Shown here in pieces: positions 43,230 to 62,441 of a stretch of DNA of 64,000 nucleotides. The stretch is from positions 2,849,121 through 2,913,120 of the forward strand of contig CP104013.1 of the NCBI GenBank assembly GCA_025839675.1. The letters run 5' to 3'. The number at the start of each line of letters is the position of its first letter. Position 1 is the first letter of the stretch. The DNA comes from Candidatus Lokiarchaeum ossiferum. Lineage in GTDB: Archaea > Asgardarchaeota > Lokiarchaeia > Sigyniarchaeales > Promethearchaeaceae. A program made the position numbers and the translations under genes. Under the pieces are notes generated by a model. The model did not search any database and was not told the DNA's origin. It saw only the letters and a list, made by a program, of their open reading frames with translations.

Positions 43230-45156
43230 TTGACTTTTCTCCTTCCGGTTTTTCTTCTTGAGTATCTTTAGAAACTGATTCTGGTAAAAGAACTGATTCG
43301 GATCTTAGGGATTTTTGTTTTGAGTAGTTTTTTTTTTCAATTTTCAGGTTATCAATTTGAGGTTGAAACTTAGGTTTCAGTTCTTCCAATGCATTCTTTC
43401 GATTCTGTTTGTACTTCTGAATTTGCTCTTTATATGTTTGTTTAGCAAGTTTAAGCTCAGATTTAATCTGAGGTAATATTGGACGATTTATCTCGGTGAT
43501 TTTTGCCTTTAATTTAGATCTTTGTTGTTTTTGCTGAATCGTTCTTTCCTTTTTATCAAATTCTATAAAATTATAGACCGTTTTCATACTATCCAAAAAT
43601 GTAGTAAGCGTCGGGATCATCTTGGAAGGGATGAAATTTGCGATTGTCAGCATATTCTGTAAACCTATTGGTTGATAATTAGAAAGTTCCACTACTTTAG
43701 AATTTAAAACAACATCAGGTGCTTTGTTTTGAATTCGTAACTTTTCGTGTTTATATGATAGATCGAGACGGATCCTTTCTAATTTGTAATGAAAACTTAT
43801 AGTTGATTTTTCTAACTTCTTTTTCTTTTTCAATTTTAGGAGTTTTAGAGAAGGAGTCTGCTCTTTTTCTTCAATCATTGATATTTGATGATCAATTTTG
43901 GACTGAAATAATTCATTTTTTCTTCTTAATTTTGCCTGTTTTCCAATAATTGCTCGTTCTAACTCATCCCCATCCAAAATTCGAGTGACTCCAGTTTCAA
44001 AACCAAGAATTTCAAGAGGTTCTTTTAAAGAACTTTTAAGAATTGAGCGAAATGCATAATCTTGAGTCGATTGAATTGCAGAGTTCCCAAATACTACAAT
44101 ATATTCTTTACCCGTAAAATTCGGTTCTGGAGGATTTTCTCCTGCAAGTAAGATCCAATCTCCAACATTATAAAGATCTTTGAATAAAATTGTTTGAAAT
44201 CGTAAGAGTAGGAGGTAGAGTGTGTGATGATCGGCAACACTCAGATTTCCAAGATGAAGGGAAAGTCCAGGAAGCTTAAAAAGGTTTAAATCTTTTGGAA
44301 TAGGCTTGATATCGAGTTTTGCGATATTTTCAGGAGTTTTTACCACATTATTTCCTGAAGATGCGAATTTTTCTTCATTTATTTGTTTTAAGAAGGGATT
44401 TTGCTTAGGATCAAACCCTAAATCAATTAATGTTTCCCAATCCAACGTTAAACAATCATTTCCAAAATAAACCCGATGTAAATGTGTTGTTTTAATTCTC
44501 TTTCCTATACATGGCCCATTCTGTTCTATAATGGAAAATCCATCGTTAATAAAAAGTAAGGGTTTTTCTTTAGATAAACTTTGAGAGGGGCGATCAATCC
44601 ATTCTTGATAAGTCTCAGGGGATTTACTTGTATTTGAATTGCTAAAAACCGAGAATAGAGGAAGAGATGCCCAAAATCCGAATAAAGGATCTTGCTTAAG
44701 CTGGGATAAAAGAACAATTGAATCAATTTGTGAAAAGAGAGAAAGATTTGGTTCGTTTATTACCTCACTTGGCTCAAGGGTTGGATCTGTCTCACCATCA
44801 AGATTTTGGGAAATTTTTTGATCGAAAACATCTGATCTATCAACCAAAATTGCATTATGGTGGTTTATCCAAGTTTTTAACCCATAATTTGAGAGAAGAG
44901 CATCAGAACTATAGCCATTGAAAACAACAGGAAGCACATAGATTTCAGATATTCCTCGAGATTTTAAGAAATTTATTAGAACAACTAGAGAATCGGGATT
45001 GAAGGATACAGGAAAAGGTTGTGGAATCAACATATCAACTACAATTAAAACCTTACCCTTACTTGGAATAAAACCTCCTTTTTGCTCTAAAAGTCTCAAT
45101 CCATCAATTATGGTTTTTTCGAGTGAATTATTTTCTGAGATAATTGTGATGCCCAT
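43222..45156 (-). CDS. DUF362-domain protein with a long Lys-rich coiled-coil C-terminal extension (644 aa)
   Basis: N-terminal DUF362 landmarks: ITIISENNSLEKTIIDGLRLL...KGKVLIVVDM... and INDGFSIIEQNGPCIG (like vvDGivgMEGnGP). The C-terminal roughly 250 aa are heptad-like and K/E/Q-rich. Confidence 0.5.
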   Translation of the reverse strand: MGITIISENNSLEKTIIDGLRLLEQKGGFIPSKGKVLIVVDMLIPQPFPVSFNPDSLVVLINFLKSRGISEIYVLPVVFNGYSSDALLSNYGLKTWINHHNAILVDRSDVFDQKISQNLDGETDPTLEPSEVINEPNLSLFSQIDSIVLLSQLKQDPLFGFWASLPLFSVFSNSNTSKSPETYQEWIDRPSQSLSKEKPLLFINDGFSIIEQNGPCIGKRIKTTHLHRVYFGNDCLTLDWETLIDLGFDPKQNPFLKQINEEKFASSGNNVVKTPENIAKLDIKPIPKDLNLFKLPGLSLHLGNLSVADHHTLYLLLLRFQTILFKDLYNVGDWILLAGENPPEPNFTGKEYIVVFGNSAIQSTQDYAFRSILKSSLKEPLEILGFETGVTRILDGDELERAIIGKQAKLRRKNELFQSKIDHQISMIEEKEQTPSLKLLKLKKKKKLEKSTISFHYKLERIRLDLSYKHEKLRIQNKAPDVVLNSKVVELSNYQPIGLQNMLTIANFIPSKMIPTLTTFLDSMKTVYNFIEFDKKERTIQQKQQRSKLKAKITEINRPILPQIKSELKLAKQTYKEQIQKYKQNRKNALEELKPKFQPQIDNLKIEKKNYSKQKSLRSESVLLPESVSKDTQEEKPEGEKSNE

Positions 45157-45239: not shown

Positions 45240-46541
45240 TTACTTTTGATCATATCGAGTTTTAACTAATCCCGCTTGCGCTTGATATTCGCCATAAGCT
45301 TTACCTGCTTTTGCCAATTTTCCAATAATATGTGAAATTCTAGGATCAATAATTCCTGGATTTTCATTTTCAAAAGGTGTCCCAGGGAGAGGCATAAAAG
45401 TATGGGTATGAATGCGGACATTTTTCACCTTGTTAGTCAGAACTTGATTAAAAAATGAAATATTCGCTTGAATATCTTCCTCAATCTCACCAGGTAACCC
45501 AAAAATGAAATCAATTTCTGCACCTATCCCAAATTCATCCATAAGATCGACAGCGGTGATGACATCTTCGATGTTATGTCCCCTTGCTATTGATTTCAAG
45601 AGACGATTGGAAGCAGTTTGAGCCCCAATCAATAATTTTCGATTTGTCATTAAAGGTGTGACAATTTCCAGCATTTCCCGAGTTACAGATTCAGGCCTAA
45701 CTTCACTTGGAAAAGTACCAAAATATATGCCTTTAATAGAATTTTTTTGCGAAATTCCAGTTAGTAATTCTTGTACCGCTTCTATGTTTGGTGTAATTCC
45801 ATTTGGAGAACCGTATGCAAATGCGTTGGGTGTTAAAAACCATACTTTATCAAATTTTATTTCGGACGCTCTTTTAACATTTTGAAGAATGGTTTGAATG
45901 GGAACATGTCGCATTTTATTTGAGGAACACCCTGTTTGACAAAATTTGCATCGATAAGGACATCCTCGAGAAATTTCAATGGGTCCAAAGAGACGGAATT
46001 TCTCTGAAAATGAGGGAGTGACCCCTAATTCAATAATTTTTGCAGGTAATCCAGGTGAATATTGAGGTTTCAGTTGGATCACCCCATTTAGCATAGGATA
46101 GTTAAGGAGATCTTGTGAAGCATTATATAAAGTATGTAATAATTGAGAAAATCCAATTTCACCTTCCCCTGGAATAAGGAAATCAACATTAAGGTTTTGA
46201 AATTCTTGAGGTGATGCCGTTACATGAGGACCTCCTGCCACCGTAAAGATTTTTGGATGAAATTGGTTGAAAAAATATGGAGTGGATTTACTAAACTCTT
46301 TAAATTGATTCATTTGAATTGACAACAACGAAAAAGCTAGAACTACAAAATCATAGTTTTGAAATGGAATTTCCTTAATTTTTGAAGAATGTTGAGGAGA
46401 TTTATAAAGTTGAAACGGTAAAGCAATAAAATCGTAGTTTTCCATCAGCTGGGAATTATTTTCTAAATATCCCATCAAAATGCTCCATGAATACCGGTTT
46501 GGTTTGTCATACCCAAATAATACCAATCCTTTCTTGATCAC
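45240..46541 (-). CDS. B12-binding-domain radical SAM protein (archaeal MJ_1487-like family)
   Basis: N-terminal Rossmann-like B12-binding region, then the radical SAM core ISRGCPYRCKFCQ (CxxxCxxC); 433 aa. Confidence 0.7.
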   Translation of the reverse strand: MIKKGLVLFGYDKPNRYSWSILMGYLENNSQLMENYDFIALPFQLYKSPQHSSKIKEIPFQNYDFVVLAFSLLSIQMNQFKEFSKSTPYFFNQFHPKIFTVAGGPHVTASPQEFQNLNVDFLIPGEGEIGFSQLLHTLYNASQDLLNYPMLNGVIQLKPQYSPGLPAKIIELGVTPSFSEKFRLFGPIEISRGCPYRCKFCQTGCSSNKMRHVPIQTILQNVKRASEIKFDKVWFLTPNAFAYGSPNGITPNIEAVQELLTGISQKNSIKGIYFGTFPSEVRPESVTREMLEIVTPLMTNRKLLIGAQTASNRLLKSIARGHNIEDVITAVDLMDEFGIGAEIDFIFGLPGEIEEDIQANISFFNQVLTNKVKNVRIHTHTFMPLPGTPFENENPGIIDPRISHIIGKLAKAGKAYGEYQAQAGLVKTRYDQK

Positions 46542-46676: not shown

Positions 46677-49541
46677 TTGAAAAAAGAGATGGCTAACCTG
46701 AATCTTTCGGAAGAATTAACAAACTCAGCAAAAATTCTTGAACAAAGAATTGGCATGCAAGCAATTATTTCAAAGATCTCTTCTCTATTTATAAGCTGTC
46801 CCTTTGATCTTGTTGATGAAAACATCGAAAAATCATTAGAAATTATAGGTAAGTTTACAAAAGTTGATACATGCCATGTGATTATTCCAAATGAGGATAA
46901 CAACCACAGCCTAGTTTTTGAATGGCACGATAAATCAGTAGAATCAACCAAACAAGTATTTGAACATGCAATTTTATCGGAAAAAATCTTTCAGAATAAC
47001 CTACTGATAAATCCACTTTTTGTAGCACAAACGAGCAAATTTAATTTTCCTTCTCCCAAGTTGAAGCAAATTTTTACGAATTTAGGAATACTGTCTTTCC
47101 TTATTGTCCCTATGAAATATCTCGGTAAAAATTTTGGGTTTATTACATTATCCAATTCTACCCATAAAAGAACTTTAGATCCAAAAAATCAAGCATTGGT
47201 TAACTCAATTGCAGAGATATTTGTTTCAAAAATAATAACAAAAAAATTAGAAGAAGAGAAGCAAGAACAAGAACTTAAATACCAAAATCTATTCAACAAT
47301 ATGGTTAATGGGTTCTCCTATCACAATGTAGTCTTTGATGCCAATGACGAACCCATAGATTTTATTTATGTGGATGTCAATCCTGCATTTACAATTTTAA
47401 CGGGTAGATCTCGTGAAGAAGTGATTGGTAAGAAATTATCGGAAATCAGTCCAAATTATTTGAAAGTACTGAAAAAACATTATTATAAAGTTATAGTCGA
47501 TAAATTTAATCTTACTTACGAGTATTATTCAAGTTCTATTGACAAATGGTTTTTGGTTAATTCTTACTCACCGGAAGATGGATATTTTGTTAATATATTT
47601 AATGATATTACAGAACGTAAAATAGCAGAACAAAAGCTTCAACAAAACGAAGAATGGTTTCAAGATGTTCTCAAGAATGCCTTGGATGCATCGTACAGAA
47701 TCAATTACATTACTCACAAAGTGGAGTATATTTCCCCAGTTTTTACCAAAATGACAGGAATATCAACAGAAAGTTTTAATTATCAAGATTTTAAAGCGCG
47801 AATTCATCCAACAGATTTTGAACACCAAGAAACTTACTTTTATGAAGAAATTAGAAGAAATCCAAGTTCGAAAATTCCATTGAAGATGAAATATAGGTTT
47901 AAATGCTATGGAGATAATTATCTTTGGTTGGAAGACAATTTTACTTTAATTGTGGATGAAAAAAGGCAGCCTTGCTATTCAATTGGTACACTTAGAGACA
48001 TTCATCAACAAACTGAAGCAGAAAGAAGGTTAAAACGGAGTGAACTAAGATTTCGGGAGGTTTTGGAACACTCATCAGATGTAATTTATCGAATTGCATT
48101 TAAAACAAGAAAATTTGATTTTATTTCACCCTCAATTGAAGTTAATTTAGGATATACAGTAAATGAAATATTAAATCTCAATTTTAATGATTCTCTTGCA
48201 TTAATTCACCCAGAAGATCGACAATTAGTAAATAACAAGATGAAACAATTATTAAATGAGAAGAAACACGAAAATACCATTAATATTCAATATAGGCTTA
48301 AAAACAAACAAAATAGCTATATTTGGGTCAATGAAAATCGGACGTCTATACGCAATAAAAAAAATAAGATTATATTTATTTTAGGAGTATTTAGAGATGT
48401 CACAGATCAATTAGAATTAGAAAAAGAACGATTACGAGCAGATAAAATTGAATCAATTGGACTCTTGGCAGCCGGAATCGCCCACGATTTTAATAATCTA
48501 CTCGTTTCAATATTAGGGAACGTAAATTTATTACAAATGACTCAAATAGATGAGGAACAATCAGATATATTACACGATATTGAACAGGGCACTTTTAACG
48601 CAACTAATTTAACAAAACAACTATTAACATTTGCAAAAGGCGGAGCCCCTATAAAGAAAAGTGAAAATTTGAAAGATATTGTTGAAAATGCCACAAAATT
48701 TGTTTTAAGGGGATCAAAATGCCGAGCAACTTTCAATTTTGAATCAAATCTTCCCCAAACCGCTATTGATGCAGGACAAATGAATCAAGTTCTTATGAAT
48801 TTACTTATCAATGCCGATCATGCAATGAGTGAGGGAGGAGTGATTCAGATTACAGTCAAATCAACATTGTTAGAAGAATCATCAAGTATACCTCTAAAAA
48901 AGGGAAAATATCTTCTGATTGAGATTAAAGATCAAGGAAAGGGAATCAAGCCAATACACAAAGATAGCATATTTAAACCATACTTCACAACAAAATCTAA
49001 AGGATCGGGGCTGGGATTGGCGACTTGTTATTCCATCATCAAACAGCATAATGGCTACATTAATTTTCGCTCCAATCTTCAAGAGGGAACAACATTCTTT
49101 TTCTACCTCCCGATTTCAGAGTCAGAAACGATTAAAGCTAATGAAGAACAACAAATATCGAGTAAAATCAATAAATCTATTTTAGTTTTAGATGATGATG
49201 CCAACATTCACAAGCTTCTGCAACGTTTATTCAAGAAACTCTCAATTAAACTCGATTCTATTTATGATGGAAAAGAGATATTAGAAATTTATAAGAAAAA
49301 AGACTCAATGGGAGAAAAATATGATTTAGTGATCATGGATTTAACTATTCCGGGAGGGATTGGAGGACAAGAAGCAATTTCCCGGCTTAAATCATATGAT
49401 CGGAATGTTAAAGCAATTGTTTCCAGCGGATATTCAAATGATCCCATCATGTCAAATTATGAAAAATATGGTTTTATTGATGTTCTTCCGAAACCTTTCA
49501 CGATTCAGGAATTAAAAACCATCATCGAAAAACATTGTTAA
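46677..49541 (+). CDS. Hybrid sensor histidine kinase: GAF-like, 3x PAS, HisKA, HATPase_c, and a C-terminal receiver domain
   Basis: H-box AAGIAHDFNNLL and ATPase G-boxes (GSGLGLA). Receiver domain LVLDDDANIHKLL...DLVIMDLTIPGG. Repeated PAS modules (DITERKIAEQKL, DIHQQTEAER, DVTDQLELEKE linkers). Confidence 0.85.
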   Translation: MKKEMANLNLSEELTNSAKILEQRIGMQAIISKISSLFISCPFDLVDENIEKSLEIIGKFTKVDTCHVIIPNEDNNHSLVFEWHDKSVESTKQVFEHAILSEKIFQNNLLINPLFVAQTSKFNFPSPKLKQIFTNLGILSFLIVPMKYLGKNFGFITLSNSTHKRTLDPKNQALVNSIAEIFVSKIITKKLEEEKQEQELKYQNLFNNMVNGFSYHNVVFDANDEPIDFIYVDVNPAFTILTGRSREEVIGKKLSEISPNYLKVLKKHYYKVIVDKFNLTYEYYSSSIDKWFLVNSYSPEDGYFVNIFNDITERKIAEQKLQQNEEWFQDVLKNALDASYRINYITHKVEYISPVFTKMTGISTESFNYQDFKARIHPTDFEHQETYFYEEIRRNPSSKIPLKMKYRFKCYGDNYLWLEDNFTLIVDEKRQPCYSIGTLRDIHQQTEAERRLKRSELRFREVLEHSSDVIYRIAFKTRKFDFISPSIEVNLGYTVNEILNLNFNDSLALIHPEDRQLVNNKMKQLLNEKKHENTINIQYRLKNKQNSYIWVNENRTSIRNKKNKIIFILGVFRDVTDQLELEKERLRADKIESIGLLAAGIAHDFNNLLVSILGNVNLLQMTQIDEEQSDILHDIEQGTFNATNLTKQLLTFAKGGAPIKKSENLKDIVENATKFVLRGSKCRATFNFESNLPQTAIDAGQMNQVLMNLLINADHAMSEGGVIQITVKSTLLEESSSIPLKKGKYLLIEIKDQGKGIKPIHKDSIFKPYFTTKSKGSGLGLATCYSIIKQHNGYINFRSNLQEGTTFFFYLPISESETIKANEEQQISSKINKSILVLDDDANIHKLLQRLFKKLSIKLDSIYDGKEILEIYKKKDSMGEKYDLVIMDLTIPGGIGGQEAISRLKSYDRNVKAIVSSGYSNDPIMSNYEKYGFIDVLPKPFTIQELKTIIEKHC

Positions 49542-52389: not shown

Positions 52390-53301
52390 ATGGATGCTGA
52401 AGCAAAAAAAAGGTTAATTGAACGGAGTTTTAAAGAAATTGAAGAAAAAAAGGCCCTTTTCAATAATAATCCAGAGAATTCCACCCAATATTTTGAAAAA
52501 TTAAAAGATTTAATCACTTTTGAAGGTAATTTGGACCTCTCAAATTATCGAAAAAAGTATCTAGAGAGGAGATTTCTTCATCGCCTTTCTTTTTTGAACA
52601 TTGAATCCTACAAGAAATATATTGATTTTGCAAAAGATAATCCTAAAGAAATATTGGAAATGAAAGATTCCCTTACCATCCATACTACCGAATGGTTTCG
52701 GGATAAAACCCCTTTCGAATTATTAAGAAAAAACATTCTTCCTAGGATATTAAAAACAAAAAAACTCGCAGCAGACAAAACTTTCAGAATTTTTTCCGCG
52801 CCTTGTAGCTCAGGGCAAGAACCATACACATTAGCCATGATTTTGGATGATATCCGTAGAGAACTTGGCATTACTACACCAATAGAAATTTATGGGTGTG
52901 ATGTAGAACCGAAAATTGTCGAAAAGGCGAAAGATGGAAAATATTTTGCTCAGTATATGAAAGGAATTCCAGTAGAATTTGTGGATCGTTATTTTACACC
53001 ATTACCCGATGATTGGTTTGAAATTAAGCATTCTATTAAGCGGATGGTGAAATTTTTTGTCCAAAATTTGTTCAAACCTCTTCCTTCATGGATCAAATCA
53101 ATGGACGTGATACTCTGCCGGAATTTATTAATTTATATTGATCGCGACCACCAATTGCAAGTTATTCAGAATCTATCAAAAATTCTACGCAAAAATGGAT
53201 ATTTGATGCTAGGAAAAACTGAAAGTCTGCTTATCCTAAATACTAAAACAGATTTTATCGCGGAAAATGCCCGTGAACATCTATATCAATACACCCCATG
53301 A
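52390..53301 (+). CDS. CheR-type protein-glutamate O-methyltransferase-like SAM methyltransferase (orphan; no other che genes in the window)
   Basis: FRIFSAPCSSGQEPYTLAMIL (like CheR lRIWSAGCSTGEEPYSLAM) and an N-terminal all-helical CheR_N-like region. Confidence 0.7.
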   Translation: MDAEAKKRLIERSFKEIEEKKALFNNNPENSTQYFEKLKDLITFEGNLDLSNYRKKYLERRFLHRLSFLNIESYKKYIDFAKDNPKEILEMKDSLTIHTTEWFRDKTPFELLRKNILPRILKTKKLAADKTFRIFSAPCSSGQEPYTLAMILDDIRRELGITTPIEIYGCDVEPKIVEKAKDGKYFAQYMKGIPVEFVDRYFTPLPDDWFEIKHSIKRMVKFFVQNLFKPLPSWIKSMDVILCRNLLIYIDRDHQLQVIQNLSKILRKNGYLMLGKTESLLILNTKTDFIAENAREHLYQYTP

Positions 53302-55426: not shown

Positions 55427-56050
55427 TTATTCGCCTAATTCATCTAAGGAAAAACGTTCAGAAGAGGTGCCATCCTTAGTAATGGTCATAACATCCATTC
55501 CACTACCCACCATAGCATCTCGAGTCATACCGTTTTTAAGAAGTTTTTTCATTAATTCCACGCCTTTTTTAACGGTAAGGGTAGGTTTGTATTCGGCTTC
55601 CAGCATACCCGAGGCGAAATACATGGAATCACCAGCCATTCCGTAATCATCTTCGGTTAAACTACCACCTGCATCTAATGTATAAACATGACCATCTCCA
55701 TTTTCTTCCACACCTGCTATGACAATCATCACATAAAGAGGTGCCATTTTGCGTTGGTAGAGATAGTTTGCAACCATTTTACCCATCGCTTGGACCGAGA
55801 TCTTAAATCCTTCTCGCATCTCATAGATATTTGCTTGAGCTTGCATGATTCGGGCTAAGGCTTGGAAATCTCCAATTAATCCATAACAGGTCATAGCAAC
55901 TCGTCCGTCCTTGGTCAACGGAAAGATTTTGGCAACATTTTTATTATTCACTGTGTATCCATAGGTAGATCGAGTGTCATTACCTAAAACAACACCGTCT
56001 TTGCATCTAATTGCAACTCCGAAAGCACCTGGTATCCATATTTGAGCCAT
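55427..56050 (-). CDS. Proteasome beta-type subunit homolog lacking the N-terminal catalytic Thr (likely non-catalytic)
   Basis: Full-length similarity to archaeal PsmB (YGLIGDFQALARIM, LDAGGSLTEDDYGMAGDSMYFASGMLE, GMDVMTITKDG), but the mature N-terminus reads AFGVAIRCKDGVVL where TTTVGI is expected. An in-frame TGA two codons upstream of the ATG rules out a longer N-terminus. Confidence 0.7.
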   Translation of the reverse strand: MAQIWIPGAFGVAIRCKDGVVLGNDTRSTYGYTVNNKNVAKIFPLTKDGRVAMTCYGLIGDFQALARIMQAQANIYEMREGFKISVQAMGKMVANYLYQRKMAPLYVMIVIAGVEENGDGHVYTLDAGGSLTEDDYGMAGDSMYFASGMLEAEYKPTLTVKKGVELMKKLLKNGMTRDAMVGSGMDVMTITKDGTSSERFSLDELGE

Positions 56051-56402: not shown

Positions 56403-57185
56403 ATGAAAACCTATCTCAAGGAATTCGAAAACATCGGGAAAGAATATGCAAATCAATTACAAAAGCAGATGAAGATTCGTTCAATTGATGATTTTGAAAA
56501 GTTTTCGTTAGAAGAAATCCACCAACAGACGAAGATAGATATGGAACGGCTCAAGCAATGGGCCGACGTGATTGATCTATATCATATTCCAGATTTAACG
56601 ACTCGAGAAGCAGAATTACTCTATTTCGCCAACATAAATTCAGTTCAAGAACTATCACACCGTCAAGCGATACGTATTTTCTATAAACTTCGTGAAATTG
56701 ATATAGAAACTTACCATATCATTCTTCAACTTCCGACATTTCAAAAAATTGAAAATTGGATAAATTTTTCAAAATTAATGACAAAACGGATAAAATTTGG
56801 ACAAAATATTCCAATTATCATGATCCCAGTGGTCGAATTTGATCACGCCAGTGAATTGAAGAATTTCAAAATTTTTACAGTAGAGGACTTTGTCCAAAAA
56901 AGCCCTATGATTTCAAATCTTCGAAAAAAAATCGGGATGTCGCGACACAATTTTCATATATTAGAAAATACAATAGATTTTATCAAAGTTGAAGGAATTG
57001 ATCTCTATTTTGCTAATCTATTTCTTCAAGTGGAAATCGAAGGGATCAACGATTTTTTATCTTTGAATAATGATGAAATCCTTCAAAAAGTTAAAGAGAT
57101 CCAGGATAATGATGAAAATTGTCCTGAAAAGTTAACTTTAAAACATATTGAGGAAATTAAACAAAAAATAATGGAGCAAAACTAA
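56403..57185 (+). CDS. Hypothetical protein with three helix-hairpin-helix-like (DUF4332-like) motifs
   Basis: FENIGKEYANQL, IPDLTTREAELLYFANINSVQEL and VEGIDLYFANLFLQ...INDFLSL fit the HhH pattern xxGIGxxxAxxL. 260 aa. The stop lies 1 nt before the next gene. Confidence 0.45.
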   Translation: MKTYLKEFENIGKEYANQLQKQMKIRSIDDFEKFSLEEIHQQTKIDMERLKQWADVIDLYHIPDLTTREAELLYFANINSVQELSHRQAIRIFYKLREIDIETYHIILQLPTFQKIENWINFSKLMTKRIKFGQNIPIIMIPVVEFDHASELKNFKIFTVEDFVQKSPMISNLRKKIGMSRHNFHILENTIDFIKVEGIDLYFANLFLQVEIEGINDFLSLNNDEILQKVKEIQDNDENCPEKLTLKHIEEIKQKIMEQN

Positions 57186-57186
57186 A

Positions 57187-60100
57187 ATGGCATTACCAGA
57201 TATATTAATTCAACTAACATACGTAATTATTGGAGTAATTGTATTTTTCATGGGATTTCTCTTAGTATATAAGAATTTGAAGAAAATCAATACAGTTGAG
57301 GGTGAAAAATTTAACGGTTCTGATTGGTTAGCCATGATTGGATTTGGATTGCTATTTGGCTTAGCAATGATTTTCATTGTGAATATCACTTTCGAGCTAA
57401 TATTACCAGTAGAAATTCCAAGTATCGCTGGATATGTCTTAATGATAATGTTAGGGGTACTTGTAATATATCCTCTGTGGGAAGTAATTTTCTTAGGGCG
57501 ACCCACAAGCGATTCAGTACATGATTTTCATAAGTTCTTGGAATCGAAAATATTAGATCGGTTTAAAGGAAAGGTGGCATATTTGGTATCTTTACTTATT
57601 TTCATAATCATCTATCTAGTTCCAATTATTATTATCAACCTAATTTCGAACGAACCTTGGCAGCAAATTGCATTTATTTGGTTCTTACTTTTTCCACTCT
57701 TCTTCTTAGCTTATTTTGCAGCTAATGGAACGGTTTCAGGAATTATAGCTAAAACTTATACAAATACAATCCCAGCCCGTGTATTGACCAAAGGAAAACT
57801 AGGAAATAAAAAAGTGATAGGTATAATAATGGTCGCTATAACTTGGATTCCTTTTATGCTAAATATCTATAATTTTGGAAATCCTATTTTGAAGGCAATT
57901 AGAGGCGTTGGAGAGATACCAACAGAATCTTCTACTAGTAGTCAGTTGGATAAATATAATGCATATATATCCCTATTTACTACAACAGTTTTTGGTATCA
58001 AAGGATTTTTCTCTAAATTCTGGAATAAGAAATCGAAAACAAAAACAATAGATTTTCTCTTTTCTGGATATTTAATGATTGGAATTGGAGTGAATATGTT
58101 ATTAAGTTTCGTGCAAATTGACCCTTCCGTCGTTGCTTCCATTTTTGATTCAATTCCAATCCCATTTATTGCGTCTTTAGGAAATGTCTTCTATAATTAC
58201 ACACTCTTATTACCAATAATTATAATTTCAAGCGGTATAACATTCGTTTATGGAATAATCAATCTTGTCCAAGTTAACTCAGATTTTCATTCGGATATTC
58301 GTCTTCAATCAACTACCAAAGCTTTTGGAAAAATAGATCTGGATAAAATGGTCGAAAGTCGTAACGAAATGCTAGAAGATCTGGAAAAAGGAAAACAAGA
58401 TAAAAAGAAGAAGGAAAAGAAGAAAAAATATGACTATGCAACCTTGTACAAATCACTTTTATTAGCTCCGAGTTATTCAAAATATGGAGTAGATCTTAAC
58501 GAACAAGTTCGACAAAAGGCGGCTCAATATTTATTCCTAATGTCGGTAGATGACAGAGAAATCGCACAGAAAATAATTGAATTCATTTTTGCAGTAACGA
58601 TTGAGAAAGATACAATCGAGAAGGATACAACAGAAATTCAAGAACAATATTACTTGAGCAAAGAAGCATTTGATGCTTTAGGAGAAATTGGGGAAATTTA
58701 TCCAGATTTGGTTATGGAACGCCTAATTAACGCATTAGAAATTGTTGATAATTATACTCAAAGATATATTTTGGATGCACTGGGTGATATCGGAGAAACG
58801 AAGGAGAACATGAAAGTAATTTTGTCCAAAATTCTCCCATTGTTTAGCAGTAAGCGCTATGATGTGCGACTCGCGGCATTCCAAGCTATGTCAGAAATGA
58901 TCTTGGAAGGAGATTCTTCGGATAAAGAATTTGTCAAGCTTGCCTTAGATGCAGTGTATACTGTCTTAAAAGATGATACTAATGAAGGGGCGATTGATAC
59001 TTGTTTAGAAGCTTTAGTAAAAATGAGTGCTCGGATTGCAGATGATATAGATATTGAAAAAATTATACCCTTTTTAACCTATTCCAAAGGGAAAGACCAA
59101 GATACCACAGATTTCATAATTCAGAATGCGATTGTTATCCTCAGTTATATGGTATATTATAATATGGCCCAGTTTACAGCAATTTTGGATAATTTAAAAC
59201 CATTTTTAAAGGATCAAAGAGATTTTATCCGATATGCTGCAGTAGATGCTTTGGGGAACTATATATTAAAATGTCCAGAAGATAAAATTGATGAAATTTT
59301 AGTGGAGCTATTGATTTTATCTACGAATGATGCTAATGATGATGTGGCTCATATAGCGACCGAAAGTATAGCGGAATTTTTGATCATGCATAAAGGATAT
59401 AAGATCACTATCGATAACCAAGCTATTTCGATTTTAGATTATTATATGAACGCATTGGTTTCAAGCAATGTTCAAGTTACTGAAAATGCGAGTGAGGCTT
59501 TAAAACAAATATCGCCATTATATGATGAAGATATTTACCCACAACTCGAAAAGCATTTGAAAAGTCAAGAAAACTTGGAACTAGTAAGGGATTGTTTGCA
59601 TGTGATTGCTGTCTCCGGAGTAGAAGAACATTTAAGCACCGATTTAGAATTGATCTACAGCTTGACAGAGCATGAGGATCCAAGTGTGCGAAGTGAAGCA
59701 ATTCTGACATTAGGATTTTTGGGAAAGAATAGACCTGAAATTAAACCCGAAGTAATTGTGAAATGTCTGGACGATAAAGATCCTCAAGTTCGTAGAGAAT
59801 CGATCTTTGCTTTAGGAAAAATTGGCAAGCAAAACCCAACGGCTGTGGTCCCTGTATTAATTCAAAAATTCTTCGAATTGGATCGCCACGATGAAGATAA
59901 GGTTAGTGAAGTAGAACTATATGCTGAAACCCTTGGGGAAATTGGAAAAGTGCACCCATCAAATGAAATCATAATCACATTGCAAAATGTGCTAATGGGT
60001 GATACTAATCCTTTCTCGAAGGATGTGATTGCAAGAGCCTTAGGAACCATTGGATATGGGATGATTCAATCCGGAAAAGCTATAAAACGGATTGAAAATG

Positions 60101-60768
60101 ATGCATTCTACAATCAAATCTCATGGTTACGATCCGCTGATAAGGCAGAATATACAATTGGTAATCTTATCATTATTTTCTTAGAAGCATTACAATTGAA
60201 AGGCATTCCAGATTCAGTAATGAATGAAATTTCCGATTCGATTCAAGATTTGCTCCCAGTATTTCTTTTTGCACAAAAAGATGAGAAGAAACCAAAGAAT
60301 GAAGATGTTATTTTAGAAACTATTAAATCTTTGCTTGCTCAAGCGTATTATGCAAATTATAACAATGAAATCTTGGAAACCATCGATCGAGTAGATTCTT
60401 TACTGAGTTTCAAACGGTTTTTCAAAACAGATGATGAGATCCTCCAAAAGCAATTCATATTCTACGCCACGCAATATACTGCGGATGGGAAGCAATTCCA
60501 TGATCAGGGTGAAGTCTTTTTACTTTTGAAAGATCAAGATCCTGAATATCTGAAATATGCGCTAAAATCTTTTGAAATCTCTCAGCAATTATCGCCTTAT
60601 GAGTTTTATACCCCCAATGCAGTGCTTCAAATGGGAATAATCCATAAGACCTTAAACAATAGAGAATTGGCAAAGCAGAAATTTGAGGAAGCACTTGAAA
60701 TCTTCACTTCATTGGATGAAGTGGATAAAATGCGCGAATGCGATGCAAATTTGAAAGAATTAAGTTAA
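57187..60768 (+). CDS. Large membrane-anchored protein (1193 aa): about 11 N-terminal TM helices, six or more PBS-lyase HEAT-like repeats, C-terminal TPR
   Basis: HEAT-like repeats RYILDALGDIGE, VRLAAFQAMSEM, IRYAAVDALGNY, VRSEAILTLGFLGK, VRRESIFALGKIGK, VIARALGTIGYG. Also contains a poly-Lys linker (KGKQDKKKKEKKKKYD) and a tandem IEKDT repeat. Confidence 0.6.
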   Translation: MALPDILIQLTYVIIGVIVFFMGFLLVYKNLKKINTVEGEKFNGSDWLAMIGFGLLFGLAMIFIVNITFELILPVEIPSIAGYVLMIMLGVLVIYPLWEVIFLGRPTSDSVHDFHKFLESKILDRFKGKVAYLVSLLIFIIIYLVPIIIINLISNEPWQQIAFIWFLLFPLFFLAYFAANGTVSGIIAKTYTNTIPARVLTKGKLGNKKVIGIIMVAITWIPFMLNIYNFGNPILKAIRGVGEIPTESSTSSQLDKYNAYISLFTTTVFGIKGFFSKFWNKKSKTKTIDFLFSGYLMIGIGVNMLLSFVQIDPSVVASIFDSIPIPFIASLGNVFYNYTLLLPIIIISSGITFVYGIINLVQVNSDFHSDIRLQSTTKAFGKIDLDKMVESRNEMLEDLEKGKQDKKKKEKKKKYDYATLYKSLLLAPSYSKYGVDLNEQVRQKAAQYLFLMSVDDREIAQKIIEFIFAVTIEKDTIEKDTTEIQEQYYLSKEAFDALGEIGEIYPDLVMERLINALEIVDNYTQRYILDALGDIGETKENMKVILSKILPLFSSKRYDVRLAAFQAMSEMILEGDSSDKEFVKLALDAVYTVLKDDTNEGAIDTCLEALVKMSARIADDIDIEKIIPFLTYSKGKDQDTTDFIIQNAIVILSYMVYYNMAQFTAILDNLKPFLKDQRDFIRYAAVDALGNYILKCPEDKIDEILVELLILSTNDANDDVAHIATESIAEFLIMHKGYKITIDNQAISILDYYMNALVSSNVQVTENASEALKQISPLYDEDIYPQLEKHLKSQENLELVRDCLHVIAVSGVEEHLSTDLELIYSLTEHEDPSVRSEAILTLGFLGKNRPEIKPEVIVKCLDDKDPQVRRESIFALGKIGKQNPTAVVPVLIQKFFELDRHDEDKVSEVELYAETLGEIGKVHPSNEIIITLQNVLMGDTNPFSKDVIARALGTIGYGMIQSGKAIKRIENDAFYNQISWLRSADKAEYTIGNLIIIFLEALQLKGIPDSVMNEISDSIQDLLPVFLFAQKDEKKPKNEDVILETIKSLLAQAYYANYNNEILETIDRVDSLLSFKRFFKTDDEILQKQFIFYATQYTADGKQFHDQGEVFLLLKDQDPEYLKYALKSFEISQQLSPYEFYTPNAVLQMGIIHKTLNNRELAKQKFEEALEIFTSLDEVDKMRECDANLKELS

Positions 60769-60866: not shown

Positions 60867-62441
60867 ATGCGTAAAACAAATTCAATCCCACGGTCTGCGG
60901 GAATTCTCTTACACCCTACTTCCCTTCATACACCATTTGGTATAGGGGATTTTGGTTCCAAAGCAATTCATTTTATTCAATATTTAAAAAAGTGTGGTCA
61001 AAAATTCTGGCAAATCCTACCATTAGGACCTACTGGGTATGCAGATTCACCTTATCAATGTATTTCAACCTTTGCAGGGAATCCTCTTTTAATCAGCATG
61101 GATGGACTCATAAAAATGCAATTGATTACTCAAAAAGAAGTCATGCAGTGTTTCGAAACCAGTCCAGATCCCAATACTCCAGAAATTCAATGGACAATTT
61201 CTACAAAAATTAATTATCAGGCTGTGAGGAAAAGCAAATATCAAGTGTTTGAAATATCTTATAACAATTTCATAAGGTCAAACTATGAGGGGAAAACCCA
61301 ATTTTTACAAGAATTTTCAGATTTTTGCCGAGAAGAAAAAGACTGGTTGGATGATTTTGTATTATTTACTTCACTAAAAAATCAGCATGACTCAAAATCT
61401 TGGATCAAATGGCCGGAAAAATATCGAAATCGACGAATTCACTCAAACGCGATTAAAGTATGGATTGCAGGACATAAAAAAGAGTTAGATTACTACAGAT
61501 TTATCCAGTGGATCTTTGCGAAGCAATGGAAAGAATTAAAAACCTATGCTAATAAACAAGGCATCCAAATTATTGGAGATATGCCAATTTTTGTAGCCCA
61601 TGATTCTGTAGATGTATGGAGCAATCCGGAATTATTTTCTCTTGACTCTTCCGGCATTTTGGAAACACAAGCAGGTGTCCCTCCAGATTATTTTAGCCCC
61701 ACAGGACAATTATGGGGAAATCCTTTGTATAATTGGAAACAAATGGAGTTGAATGGCTTTAAATGGTTTATTAGGCGATTTAAAAAGCTAGCAGACTTTT
61801 ATGATTGGATTAGAATTGACCACTTCAGAGGATTTGAAGCCTTCTGGGAAGTTGACGGGATCGCCACGGATGCAATTAAAGGAAAATGGGTAAAGGCACC
61901 AGGGGAAAAACTTTTCAAAGAAGTGGAGAAAGAATTGGGGCAGTTACCAATTTTTGCTGAGGATTTAGGCATAATTACTGCTGAAGTTGAGCAATTACGA
62001 GATAAATTTGATTTTCCTGGGATGAAAGTAATGCAATTTGCATTTGGAGACGATTCAAATAATCCGCATTTACCTCATAATGTAATTCCCAACTCAATTG
62101 TTTACTCAGGTACTCATGACAATGACACCACGGTAGGATGGTGGCAAAATGGGGCAACTAAAGAAGAAAAAGAAATGTTTATGGAATATTTAAACGCAGA
62201 AGGAATGAATATCATTGAGGATATGATCAAAGGATTATATCGAACTTCTGCAAAAATTGCAATTATACCTATTCAAGACTTATTGGGATTGGGTTCAAAA
62301 TCCCGGATGAATACTCCAAGTGTAACCCAAGGTAATTGGCAATTTCGACTAAAATATGGGGATCTTTCCGAACAAAAAGCCATTTGGATACGTAAAATAG
62401 CATCCCTCTACGGAAGATTACCCGTTGACCCTAAATCATGA
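60867..62441 (+). CDS. malQ: 4-alpha-glucanotransferase (amylomaltase, GH77)
   Basis: N-terminal RSAGILLHPTSLHTPFGIGDFG and GH77 catalytic regions (IDHFRGF, GDMPIFVAHDS, FAEDLG). Confidence 0.85.
   Translation: MRKTNSIPRSAGILLHPTSLHTPFGIGDFGSKAIHFIQYLKKCGQKFWQILPLGPTGYADSPYQCISTFAGNPLLISMDGLIKMQLITQKEVMQCFETSPDPNTPEIQWTISTKINYQAVRKSKYQVFEISYNNFIRSNYEGKTQFLQEFSDFCREEKDWLDDFVLFTSLKNQHDSKSWIKWPEKYRNRRIHSNAIKVWIAGHKKELDYYRFIQWIFAKQWKELKTYANKQGIQIIGDMPIFVAHDSVDVWSNPELFSLDSSGILETQAGVPPDYFSPTGQLWGNPLYNWKQMELNGFKWFIRRFKKLADFYDWIRIDHFRGFEAFWEVDGIATDAIKGKWVKAPGEKLFKEVEKELGQLPIFAEDLGIITAEVEQLRDKFDFPGMKVMQFAFGDDSNNPHLPHNVIPNSIVYSGTHDNDTTVGWWQNGATKEEKEMFMEYLNAEGMNIIEDMIKGLYRTSAKIAIIPIQDLLGLGSKSRMNTPSVTQGNWQFRLKYGDLSEQKAIWIRKIASLYGRLPVDPKS

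What the first reader, a model, noticed from the sequence alone, without database searches (positions are those of the whole stretch)
56403..60768. Translationally coupled pair: tandem-HhH protein and a 1193-aa membrane-anchored HEAT/TPR scaffold
The 260-aa protein shows three helix-hairpin-helix-like motifs, suggesting nucleic-acid binding. Its stop codon lies 1 nt before a giant protein with about 11 TM helices, at least six PBS-lyase HEAT-like repeats (VRxxAxxALGxIG pattern) and a C-terminal TPR. A multi-pass membrane anchor fused to a long cytoplasmic HEAT/TPR solenoid, coupled to a putative DNA/RNA-binding partner, has no described function. It could tether nucleic acid or a protein complex to the membrane.
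Basis: partly seen in the sequence, partly recalled or inferred. Interest (0 to 1): 0.65.

Follow-up and report, generated by a model that had tools for sequence, protein, structure and literature searches.

The report
Membrane HEAT scaffold plus HhH partner
In the Asgard archaeon Lokiarchaeum ossiferum, a small protein made of two helix-hairpin-helix domains is always encoded right in front of a giant membrane protein that carries a long cytoplasmic HEAT-repeat arm; the pair is real, strictly conserved and uncharacterised, and probably forms a membrane-anchored docking platform, possibly for DNA.

Summary
Both ORFs exist at the stated coordinates, separated by 1 nt. An SD-like GGAG lies 10 nt upstream of the second start. 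The window is Ca. Lokiarchaeum ossiferum.

- **1193-aa protein:** TPR signal there is sub-threshold.

The pair is adjacent in every locus with upstream DNA: 24 further pairs, down to 30-34% identity, in at least five unrelated neighbourhoods. Gaps are -10 to +5 nt with a conserved GGAGG. One contig carries the whole pair duplicated in tandem.

The membrane domain matches no Pfam or NCBIfam family and no solved fold. It defines an apparently Asgard-restricted family of membrane+HEAT proteins (116 clusters). Only the subgroup with the C-terminal module has the DUF4332 partner. A paralog lineage sits between GINS and MCM genes.

Best reading: an obligate two-subunit membrane scaffold. Nucleic-acid binding is unproven, because the hairpins are degenerate and the protein is acidic. 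I found no published description of the fusion or the pairing.

The parts
56403..57185 (+). Gene for the 260-aa cytoplasmic tandem-DUF4332 / (HhH)2 protein (NEF87_002450 of Ca. Lokiarchaeum ossiferum)
   Evidence: The ORF is. P0057 is 100% identical. Pfam DUF4332 scores E 1.8e-21, 77 bits. No hydrophobic segment was found.
56430..56765 (+). DUF4332 domain 1 (aa 10-121). It holds HhH-like units 1 (FENIG..YA..L, G12 invariant) and 2 (IPDL hairpin, P63 invariant).
   Evidence: Pfam gives 54.7 bits against a cut-off of 23.2, with weak TfoX_C and Cdd1 hits. A PHROG DNA-polymerase HhH matches aa 5-62 at E 7.5e-5.
56769..56801 (+). Conserved basic inter-domain segment (A/S)KxMTKRIKxG (aa 123-133). 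It lies inside the most conserved stretch of the protein (aa 71-140).
   Evidence: K124, I130, K131 and G133 are invariant, and K128 and R129 are at least 90% conserved. Columns 71-140 average 75-89% identity per 10-column block, yet mean pLDDT over aa 81-140 is only 41-63 and falls below 50 at 96-111 and 129-133. The basic motif is kept as MTRRKKYG/MTRRKKFG in the partners that are only 30-33% identical.
56841..57152 (+). DUF4332 domain 2 (aa 147-250), acidic. HhH-like unit 4 has an EGID hairpin (G198 at least 90% conserved, D200 invariant).
   Evidence: Pfam gives 26.6 bits against a cut-off of 23.2 when the domain is scanned alone. The pI is 4.94. pLDDT is 81-93.
57173..57176 (+). Shine-Dalgarno-like GGAG inside the 3' end of the first gene, 10 nt upstream of the second gene's ATG
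   Evidence: The sequence is. The equivalent GGAGG/GAGG/GGAG lies about 6-14 nt upstream of the start in 18 orthologous junctions.
57187..60768 (+). Gene for the 1193-aa membrane + HEAT protein
   Evidence: The ORF is. P0001 is 99% identical and named 'HEAT repeat domain-containing protein [Ca. Lokiarchaeum ossiferum]'.
57187..58281 (+). N-terminal 9-TM domain (aa 1-365) with no known family. The strongest conserved motifs face the cytoplasm: YPLWE...PTSDSVHDFHKFLE (aa 95-119) and KFWNKKSKTKTID (aa 277-289).
58282..58476 (+). Charged, poorly conserved linker with a Lys-rich run (aa 366-430)
   Evidence: Mean column identity is 0.48, the lowest of all regions. The pI is 9.3.
58477..60126 (+). 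Acidic HEAT-repeat solenoid (aa 431-980) with six ALGxIG-type repeats
   Evidence: Pfam HEAT_2 scores E 3.8e-22, HEAT 9.4e-19, Cnd1 4.5e-10 and HEAT_PBS 27.4 bits. The profile matches alphaRep at 5e-46, AP-1/AP-2 beta at 3e-16 and importin-5 at 4.5e-9. The pI is 4.5 with net charge -41. Repeats are listed.
60127..60765 (+). Conserved C-terminal alpha-helical module (aa 981-1110) plus TPR-like tail (aa 1111-1193). It is specific to the DUF4332-linked orthogroup and is a candidate docking site for the partner (inference).
   Evidence: aa 981-1110 is the most conserved region of the protein (0.72). Region HMMs hit 48 and 47 orthogroup proteins and none of the paralogs, whereas the TM and HEAT HMMs hit all groups. 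TPR_12 reaches only 14.6 bits.

Best explanation
The two genes form a translationally coupled operon. It encodes the two subunits of one membrane complex found in Lokiarchaeia (Asgard archaea).

- **Large subunit.** It sits in the cytoplasmic membrane through a 9-helix domain of a new, apparently Asgard-restricted type, with the N-terminus outside. It projects an acidic HEAT solenoid of about 550 aa and a conserved helical module of about 210 aa into the cytoplasm.
- **Small subunit.** It is soluble and consists of two (HhH)2-type DUF4332 domains. It probably docks on the large subunit through its most conserved, partly basic central segment (aa 71-140). The likely docking site is the orthogroup-specific C-terminal module or the acidic solenoid.
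- **Proposed role.** The HhH units remain free to hold a ligand at the membrane. That ligand would be nucleic acid, most plausibly DNA or a DNA-bound machine, or else another protein. The complex would then be a membrane-anchored docking or tethering platform rather than an enzyme.

**Status of each step**
- Shown: the gene pair, its coupling and co-conservation, the domain composition, the topology prediction, and the HhH fold.
- Inferred: physical interaction, the docking surface, and the nature of the ligand.
For: **Coupling and co-conservation**
- The gap is 1 nt with an internal SD-like motif. The same arrangement (gap -10 to +5 nt, GGAGG) recurs in 18 orthologous junctions.
- The genes are adjacent in 15 of 15 genome loci that have upstream DNA.
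- They are also adjacent in L018-L021 and L025-L028, which span at least five unrelated neighbourhoods.
- The check is reciprocal. Starting from DUF4332 homologs, the HEAT gene is always next.
- In L028 the whole pair is duplicated in tandem. The two partners have diverged equally, to 65.6% and 66.3% identity.

**Location and charge**
- The cytoplasmic position of the HEAT arm follows from 9 TM helices and positive-inside loops.
- The small protein has no TM segment.
- The solenoid is acidic (net -41). The partner has a conserved basic motif, MTKRIKxG.
- The most conserved part of the partner is modelled with low confidence on its own. This fits a segment that folds on its partner.

**Specificity**
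- The C-terminal module occurs only in the orthogroup that has the DUF4332 partner.

**HhH fold**
- Pfam DUF4332, TfoX_C and Cdd1 hits agree.

**Hint of a DNA link in the wider family**
- A paralog lineage lies head-to-head with a GINS (Sld5) gene. In Loki-like contigs it also sits between topoisomerase VI and MCM genes.
Against: - No interaction was modelled or measured.
- None of the four hairpins has the canonical G-h-G.
- The small protein is acidic overall (pI 5.6). Ortholog pI ranges from 5.2 to 9.3, so there is no consistent basic character.
- Protein-binding (HhH)2 and SAM domains match about as well as DNA-binding ones.
- A 9-helix domain that is as conserved as the rest of the protein (0.60 mean identity) is more than an anchor needs. 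It may have an activity of its own, such as transport, sensing or lipid handling, which this model ignores.
- The GINS/MCM neighbourhood concerns a paralog that lacks the DUF4332 partner.
- Both AlphaFold models rest on shallow alignments of 19 and 24 sequences.
Confidence: 0.4

Rival explanations
1. Protein-only scaffold. The DUF4332 domains act like the NusA acidic repeats, ERCC1/XPF HhH domains or SAM domains. In that case they are protein-protein adaptors or oligomerisers, and the complex is an adaptin-like membrane platform. It might recruit or cluster cytoplasmic proteins for membrane shaping, protrusion formation or trafficking-like processes. Nucleic acid would play no part.
For: - Domain 2 is acidic and has a G-I-D hairpin.
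- The HEAT profile matches AP-1/AP-2 beta-adaptin trunks at E 3e-16.
- Family members pass the Pfam Adaptin_N cut-off.
- L. ossiferum is reported to be enriched in 'adaptin N heat repeats domain' signature proteins (PMC9834061).
- Lokiarchaeal HEAT proteins cluster with clathrin adaptors (PMC5228436).
Against: - The window protein itself is below the Adaptin_N cut-off (28.8 against 37 bits).
- Its best repeat matches are the prokaryote-derived alphaRep / PBS-HEAT type.
- No coat, GTPase or cargo genes are conserved next to the pair.
- Most HhH-clan relatives found do bind DNA.
Confidence: 0.3
2. The membrane domain is the active part, acting as a channel, transporter, lipid-handling module or receptor. 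The HEAT arm and the HhH protein would then be its cytoplasmic regulators or substrate-delivery module. One version is DNA passage across the membrane, with logic resembling ComEA/ComEC.
For: - The 9-TM domain is large and as conserved as the soluble part.
- It has residues in or at the edge of the membrane that are invariant across the family: N303, Y295, D289, W165 and P170.
- It is the defining shared element of 116 family clusters.
- An HhH protein combined with a polytopic membrane protein recalls the DNA-uptake machinery. This point rests on my own knowledge, not on a test.
Against: - No transporter, channel or enzyme family matches by sequence or by Foldseek (best E 0.23, TM-score about 0.17).
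- The strongest conserved motifs are cytoplasmic loops rather than charged intramembrane residues.
- The HhH protein has no signal peptide or TM segment, unlike ComEA.
Confidence: 0.2
3. Proteasome or quality-control link. The complex would be an ERAD-like membrane platform, working like Hrd1, that hands membrane or secreted proteins to the proteasome. The HEAT arm would serve as a proteasome or ubiquitin-system adaptor.
For: - A proteasome beta-subunit gene lies divergently upstream in the window and in many Lokiarchaeales loci.
Against: - No RING or ubiquitin-related domain is present.
- The proteasome neighbour is lost in the more divergent loci L018-L021 and L028, while the pair persists. 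It is therefore local synteny only.
- This model does not explain the HhH partner.
Confidence: 0.05

Closest known systems
DUF4332 (Pfam PF14229, HhH clan) and solved (HhH)2 domains: RAD51 paralog N-terminal domains, NusA AR1/AR2, Hef/XPF-ERCC1 HhH domains, RNA polymerase alpha-CTD, Pol X/beta
   Different: - Two domains are joined by a highly conserved basic linker that is specific to this family.
- The hairpins lack G-h-G.
- No catalytic or other domain is attached.
- It is always encoded upstream of a membrane protein.
- No PDB sequence relative exists (best E 0.04).
Adaptin_N / clathrin-adaptor large-subunit trunks, and the lokiarchaeal 'adaptin N HEAT repeat' signature proteins described in Asgard genomics papers
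   Same: Both are HEAT-type alpha-solenoids. The profile matches AP-1/AP-2 beta residues 23-197 at E 3e-16. Several family members pass the Adaptin_N cut-off. The class is already noted in L. ossiferum and other Asgards (PMC9834061, PMC5228436, PMC10307638).
   Different: - Adaptins are soluble, peripheral subunits of heterotetramers. This protein is an integral 9-TM membrane protein with one small HhH partner.
- The window protein is below the Adaptin_N cut-off.
- I found no paper that mentions the membrane fusion or the DUF4332 pairing.
PBS-lyase-type HEAT-like repeat proteins (CpcE, NblB; the designed alphaRep proteins derive from this class)
   Same: The repeat signature (VRxxAxxALGxIG) matches. 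HEAT_PBS scores 27.4 bits against a cut-off of 20.9. The alphaRep match is E 5e-46.
   Different: - NCBIfam CpcE and NblB models score 29-37 bits against cut-offs of 300-330.
- Those proteins are small and soluble.
- No bilin-lyase context is present.
Membrane-chromosome tethers and DNA-handling membrane systems: eukaryotic inner-nuclear-membrane LEM/HeH proteins and bacterial ComEA/ComEC (analogy only)
   Same: The logic is the same: a membrane protein is coupled to a small helical, HhH-like nucleic-acid-binding module.
   Different: - No homology was detected or tested.
- Here the HhH module is a separate cytoplasmic polypeptide.
- Binding to DNA has not been shown.
- The resemblance rests on my own knowledge.
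Hrd1 / Doa10 (ERAD ligase membrane domains) and SERINC3
   Different: - rmsd is 5.2-5.6 A for the long alignments (Hrd1, SERINC3). Doa10 aligns only 95 residues, at 4.3 A.
- Sequence identity is 5-9%.
- Foldseek finds nothing significant.
- There is no RING domain.

Membership tests
DUF4332 (PF14229) | Score above the Pfam gathering cut-off (23.2 bits) | tested here: met
   The whole protein scores 77 bits. Domain 1 alone scores 54.7 bits and domain 2 alone 26.6 bits. All listed homologs carry PF14229.
Helix-hairpin-helix (HhH)2 DNA-binding domains | (HhH)2 five-helix fold | tested here: met
   [not shown]
Helix-hairpin-helix (HhH)2 DNA-binding domains | Canonical G-h-G hairpin followed by A at +4 | tested here: not met
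   Alignment A2 gives the following. Unit 1 is x-I-G...A, with G12 and A16 invariant. Unit 2 is I-P-D/N-L, with no Gly. Unit 3 has no Gly. Unit 4 is G-I-D, with D200 invariant. No unit has both glycines.
Helix-hairpin-helix (HhH)2 DNA-binding domains | Binding to nucleic acid | not testable with these tools
   Only indirect data exist: pI 5.6, the conserved basic motif MTKRIKxG, and mixed DNA-binding and protein-binding structural neighbours.
HEAT repeat proteins (PF13646 HEAT_2, PF02985 HEAT, PF03130 HEAT_PBS) | Scores above the gathering cut-offs, with repeated units | tested here: met
   HEAT_2 scores 78.8 against 27.7, HEAT 66.2 against 23.5, and HEAT_PBS 27.4 against 20.9. Six ALGxIG-type units are present.
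Adaptin_N (PF01602; clathrin-adaptor / COPI large-subunit trunk) | Score above the gathering cut-off (37 bits) | tested here: not met
   The window protein's C-terminal third scores 28.8 bits, E 6.2e-7. Paralogs P0098, P0143, P0158 and P0177 do pass, at 45.6-69.2 bits.
Adaptin_N (PF01602; clathrin-adaptor / COPI large-subunit trunk) | Part of a heterotetramer with medium and small subunits; soluble and recruited peripherally | tested here: not met
   The protein is integral to the membrane, with 9 TM helices. No mu- or sigma-like genes lie in any of the neighbourhoods examined.
Phycobilin lyase / NblB HEAT proteins (NCBIfam NF058502, NF045915) | Score above the equivalog cut-off | tested here: not met
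   Scores are 28.9 against 330, and 36.7 against 300.
TPR repeat proteins | TPR profile above the cut-off in the C-terminal tail | tested here: inconclusive
   TPR_12 scores 14.6 bits against 30.1, and TPR_2 13.3 against 27. Precomputed TPR hits exist in some orthologs (P0021, P0023, P0032, P0037, P0042).
Condensin / cohesin HEAT subunits (Cnd1 PF12717, SCD, PDS5) | Profile match plus an SMC-kleisin partner context | tested here: inconclusive
   Cnd1 scores 40.3 bits against 26.4, but over only about 85 of 162 profile positions (aa 822-903). SCD is below its cut-off. No SMC or kleisin gene lies nearby. This is most simply generic HEAT cross-matching.
Any described membrane-protein family (Pfam, NCBIfam, PDB folds) | Sequence or structural match of the 9-TM domain | tested here: not met
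   [not shown]
Asgard TM+HEAT family (defined here) | N-terminal 9-TM domain with the YP(L/I)xE/D...H and G.F..(K/R)(F/Y)W.(K/R)K.K...D motifs, followed by a HEAT solenoid | tested here: met
   The profile of the TM domain finds 116 representative clusters among 1.84 billion, of which 89 score E<=1e-10. In the full-length members the TM domain lies at or near the N-terminus, preceded in a few long members by an extension of up to about 280 aa. All seven full-length members scanned carry C-terminal HEAT repeats. Named members are Promethearchaeota, Loki, Thor or Hod, apart from single MAGs labelled 'Bathyarchaeota' and 'Euryarchaeota'.

The most novel reading that the evidence does not exclude
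The 9-TM/HEAT proteins are an Asgard invention for attaching DNA or DNA machines to the cell membrane.
- In the focal orthogroup, the tandem-(HhH)2 subunit would clamp chromosomal or extrachromosomal DNA to the cytoplasmic face.
- The paralog encoded between GINS and MCM would do the same for the replisome.

This would be a prokaryotic membrane-chromatin tethering system built on an adaptin/HAWK-like solenoid. It would be a conceptual forerunner of nuclear-envelope-chromatin attachment.
Probability: 0.12. Interest if true: 0.85.

Novelty: new variant of a known kind. Interest (0 to 1): 0.55.

Why it matters
[quoted passage not shown] This work shows three things about that class:
- A large part of it consists of integral membrane proteins built on a membrane domain with no detectable relatives outside sequences labelled Asgard.
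- One conserved orthogroup is an obligate operon partner of a tandem HhH protein.
- A sister lineage sits inside the GINS-MCM replication gene cluster.

These points turn a vague annotation into a concrete, testable two-subunit complex in two cultured organisms, L. ossiferum and P. syntrophicum. If the complex links DNA or other machinery to the membrane, it bears on how cell organisation became more complex before eukaryotes. If it does not, it is still a new membrane-protein family worth a structure.

Tried and rejected
1. **Fusion artefact of two genes.** Rejected. About 45 full-length homolog clusters of 1163-1238 aa exist, including two closed genomes.
2. **Chance adjacency or local synteny only.** Rejected. 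The pair persists at 30-37% identity in unrelated neighbourhoods and is duplicated as a unit. The proteasome-beta and GH77 neighbours are lost in those same loci.
3. **Defence-system or phage origin.** PADLOC gives only generic HEAT cross-hits (OloA 3e-8). PHROGs gives only an HhH match to a DNA polymerase. Composition is uniform.
4. **Bilin lyase.** NCBIfam scores are an order of magnitude below the cut-offs.
5. **A solved-structure relative of the 260-aa protein by sequence.** None found (best E 0.04).
7. **N-terminal extensions of long paralogs (P0164, P0174) as fused DUF4332.** Rejected on inspection. The extensions are rich in N-x-S/T sequons and are followed by TM helices, and Pfam finds no DUF4332 (P0164; sequences of both).
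8. **RNA genes in the window.** No tRNA or Rfam hits.
9. **Third homology search with the TM profile.** It returned only 15 fragments and added little beyond taxon labels.
10. **Literature.** Searches for DUF4332, the locus tag, and Asgard + HEAT + transmembrane found no functional study.

Full report
**1. What is in the sequence**

The window contains two same-strand ORFs: 56403-57185 (260 aa) and 57187-60768 (1193 aa). The first ends with TAA at 57183-57185. One base follows, then the ATG of the second. A GGAG at 57173-57176 lies 10 nt upstream of that ATG, inside the first gene.

The DNA is 30-35% GC throughout, with no compositional break. There are no tRNA or Rfam hits.

Both proteins are 99-100% identical to database entries from Candidatus Lokiarchaeum ossiferum. 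Those entries are named 'HEAT repeat domain-containing protein' and NEF87_002450 'DUF4332 domain-containing'. The window is therefore a piece of that cultured Asgard archaeon's chromosome.

The neighbours are ordinary genes:
- a proteasome beta subunit, divergent upstream;
- a GH77 4-alpha-glucanotransferase downstream;
- HD, DUF3795, CitMHS and CheR genes, and metabolic genes.

**2. The small protein**

Pfam assigns DUF4332 (HhH clan) at E 1.8e-21. Each half passes the cut-off on its own: aa 10-121 at 54.7 bits and aa 147-250 at 26.6 bits, against a cut-off of 23.2. TfoX_C and Cdd1 give weak HhH hits.

DNA binding is not established, for four reasons:
- None of the four hairpins has the G-h-G signature. 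Only G12 and G198 are conserved, and unit 4 reads G-I-D.
- The protein is acidic (pI 5.6; domain 2 pI 4.9). Ortholog pI varies from 5.2 to 9.3.
- Protein-binding members of the fold match as well as DNA-binding ones.
- No PDB sequence relative exists.

The most conserved stretch is aa 71-140, where 10-column blocks average 75-89% identity. It includes the basic motif (A/S)KxMTKRIKxG. Yet it is the least confidently modelled part. I read this as a possible partner-binding segment. That is inference.

**3. The large protein**

Hydropathy and an AlphaFold model of aa 1-400 (19 sequences, pLDDT 80, pTM 0.79) agree on nine TM helices. Two short non-spanning helices lie on the outer side. All Lys/Arg-rich loops fall on one side. 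This gives N-out/C-in topology and places everything after residue about 365 in the cytoplasm.

The strongest conserved motifs of the membrane domain are cytoplasmic:
- YPLWE...PTSDSVHDFHKFLE
- KFWNKKSKTKTID

The rest of the protein, in order:
- A variable Lys-rich linker (aa 366-430).
- An acidic HEAT solenoid (aa 431-980; net charge -41; six ALGxIG-type repeats; HEAT_2 E 3.8e-22).
- A roughly 210-aa helical C-terminal module that includes the most conserved region of the whole protein (aa 981-1110, 0.72 mean column identity). Its tail is only weakly TPR-like.

The family profile matches the following in PDB:
- designed alphaRep (PBS-HEAT type) proteins, E 5e-46;
- AP-1/AP-2 beta-adaptin trunks, 3e-16;
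- importin-5, 4.5e-9;
- CAND1, 6e-7.

This is generic solenoid similarity, closest to the prokaryotic HEAT_2/PBS class. The window protein is below the Adaptin_N cut-off (28.8 against 37 bits).

**4. The membrane domain is new**

A profile of the domain was searched against 1.84 billion representative proteins. It found 116 clusters, 89 of them at E<=1e-10. In the full-length members (1087-2037 aa) the domain lies at or near the N-terminus. All seven full-length members scanned carry HEAT repeats behind it, and some pass the Adaptin_N cut-off.

Every named member sampled is labelled Promethearchaeota, Lokiarchaeota, Thorarchaeota, Hodarchaeota or Harpocratesius. The exceptions are single MAGs labelled Bathyarchaeota and Euryarchaeota. 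I therefore regard this as an apparently Asgard-restricted family of membrane + HEAT proteins with several paralogs per genome.

**5. Co-conservation of the pair**

- A scan of one genome per species found 16 loci. All 15 that have upstream DNA carry the DUF4332 gene immediately upstream on the same strand.
- The same holds for the most divergent orthologs. These are L018 (33% identity, genes overlapping by 10 nt, SHMT/POR neighbourhood), L019, L020 and L021.
- It also holds in reverse, starting from DUF4332 homologs (L025-L027).
- Across 18 junctions the gap is -10 to +5 nt. A GGAGG/GAGG motif sits about 6-14 nt before the second start.
- In L028 the pair is tandemly duplicated (DUF4332-HEAT-DUF4332-HEAT). 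The two partners have diverged equally, to 65.6% and 66.3% identity, and both junctions are preserved.
- No third gene is conserved with the pair. The proteasome-beta and GH77 neighbours are local synteny of close relatives only.
- Region-specific HMMs show that the TM and HEAT parts are shared with all paralogs. The C-terminal module and tail occur only in the orthogroup that has the DUF4332 partner. That makes the module the best candidate docking site, by inference.

**6. A paralog in a replication cluster**

A second lineage of about 1063-1153 aa has the same architecture but no DUF4332 partner. In three Loki-like contigs it lies within the gene order topoisomerase VI B/A, a small divergent gene, the TM-HEAT paralog, MCM.

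In a distant contig the paralog is only 30% identical, yet the divergent neighbour is retained. That neighbour hits the GINS Sld5 profile above its cut-off (25.5 against 22.3 bits). It is homologous to the Loki-like one at E 5e-14.

This is a hint that the family is connected with DNA transactions. It rests on four loci and concerns a paralog.

**7. Interpretation**

Firmly supported:
- The genes form a bicistronic, translationally coupled operon.
- They encode a polytopic membrane protein with a long cytoplasmic solenoid and a soluble tandem-(HhH)2 protein.
- The two are inherited and duplicated as a unit.

The simplest mechanism is a stable two-subunit membrane complex that acts as a docking or tethering platform. 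Whether the tethered ligand is nucleic acid or protein is open.
- For nucleic acid: the HhH fold, the basic linker, and the GINS/MCM context of the paralog.
- For protein: degenerate hairpins, acidity, NusA-AR/SAM-like matches, and the adaptin-like solenoid.

**8. Relation to what is known**

Published work notes two things. L. ossiferum is enriched in 'adaptin N heat repeats domain' signature proteins (PMC9834061). Lokiarchaeal HEAT proteins cluster with clathrin adaptors and HAWKs (PMC5228436; see also PMC10307638).

I found no description of the membrane-domain fusion, of the DUF4332 pairing, or of any function.

The building blocks (HEAT, HhH) are known kinds. The membrane domain, the architecture and the operon are undescribed. 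I therefore rate it as a new variant of a known kind, a membrane-anchored solenoid scaffold, with moderate-to-high interest for Asgard cell biology.

**9. Limits**

- Both models rest on shallow alignments.
- No multimer prediction, AFDB search or experiment was possible.
- Taxon labels of MAG proteins are as deposited.
- Several loci come from related MAGs and are not independent.

Noticed in passing
L017:5337-11640; L024:3520-9838; L022:4368-8462; and the contig of P0054 (no DNA): A paralog lineage of the TM+HEAT family, without a DUF4332 partner, sits head-to-head with a small GINS (Sld5-like) gene. In Loki-like contigs it is flanked by topoisomerase VI A/B upstream and MCM downstream. An Arf-like GTPase and a histone-deacetylase gene follow MCM in L017 and L024. 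The GINS neighbour is retained at 30% identity between the paralogs.
   Followed up: partly
L028:4091-13136: The whole DUF4332 + TM-HEAT pair is tandemly duplicated. The two copies are 65.6% (small protein) and 66.3% (large protein) identical. Both junctions keep TGGAGGCG...TGA-N-ATG.
   Followed up: yes
window 56613-56822 (aa 71-140 of the 260-aa protein): The most conserved stretch of the small protein averages 75-89% column identity per 10-column block. It is the least confidently modelled part, with mean pLDDT 41-63 over aa 81-140. It may fold only on its partner.
   Followed up: partly
window 41595-45156 (-): Two large overlapping ORFs (544 and 644 aa) have no Pfam hit at E<=1e-5. They lie next to a B12-binding radical SAM gene (45240-46541, -). 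In L025, close to the orthologous pair, a radical SAM gene of the same size (433 aa) and domain content lies next to a 676-aa gene with no Pfam family; I did not test whether that gene is homologous to the 644-aa ORF.
   Followed up: no
window 55427-56050 (-) and 60867-62441 (+): The proteasome beta subunit and GH77 4-alpha-glucanotransferase genes flank the pair here and in many Lokiarchaeales loci (L003-L006, L013, L025-L027). They do not flank it in the divergent loci L018-L021 and L028. This is local synteny, not a functional link.
   Followed up: yes
P0164 aa 1-260, P0174 aa 1-280 (proteins): Long family members (1641-1705 aa) have N-terminal extensions of about 160 aa before the first hydrophobic helix. 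The extensions are rich in N-x-S/T sequons and have no obvious signal peptide. Their side of the membrane is unclear.
   Followed up: no
window 46677-49541 (+), 52390-53301 (+), 37910-40273 (+): The window also carries a hybrid PAS-histidine kinase-receiver protein, a CheR methyltransferase and a glycyl-radical (PFL-like) enzyme. These are ordinary signalling and metabolic genes with no evident connection to the pair.
   Followed up: no
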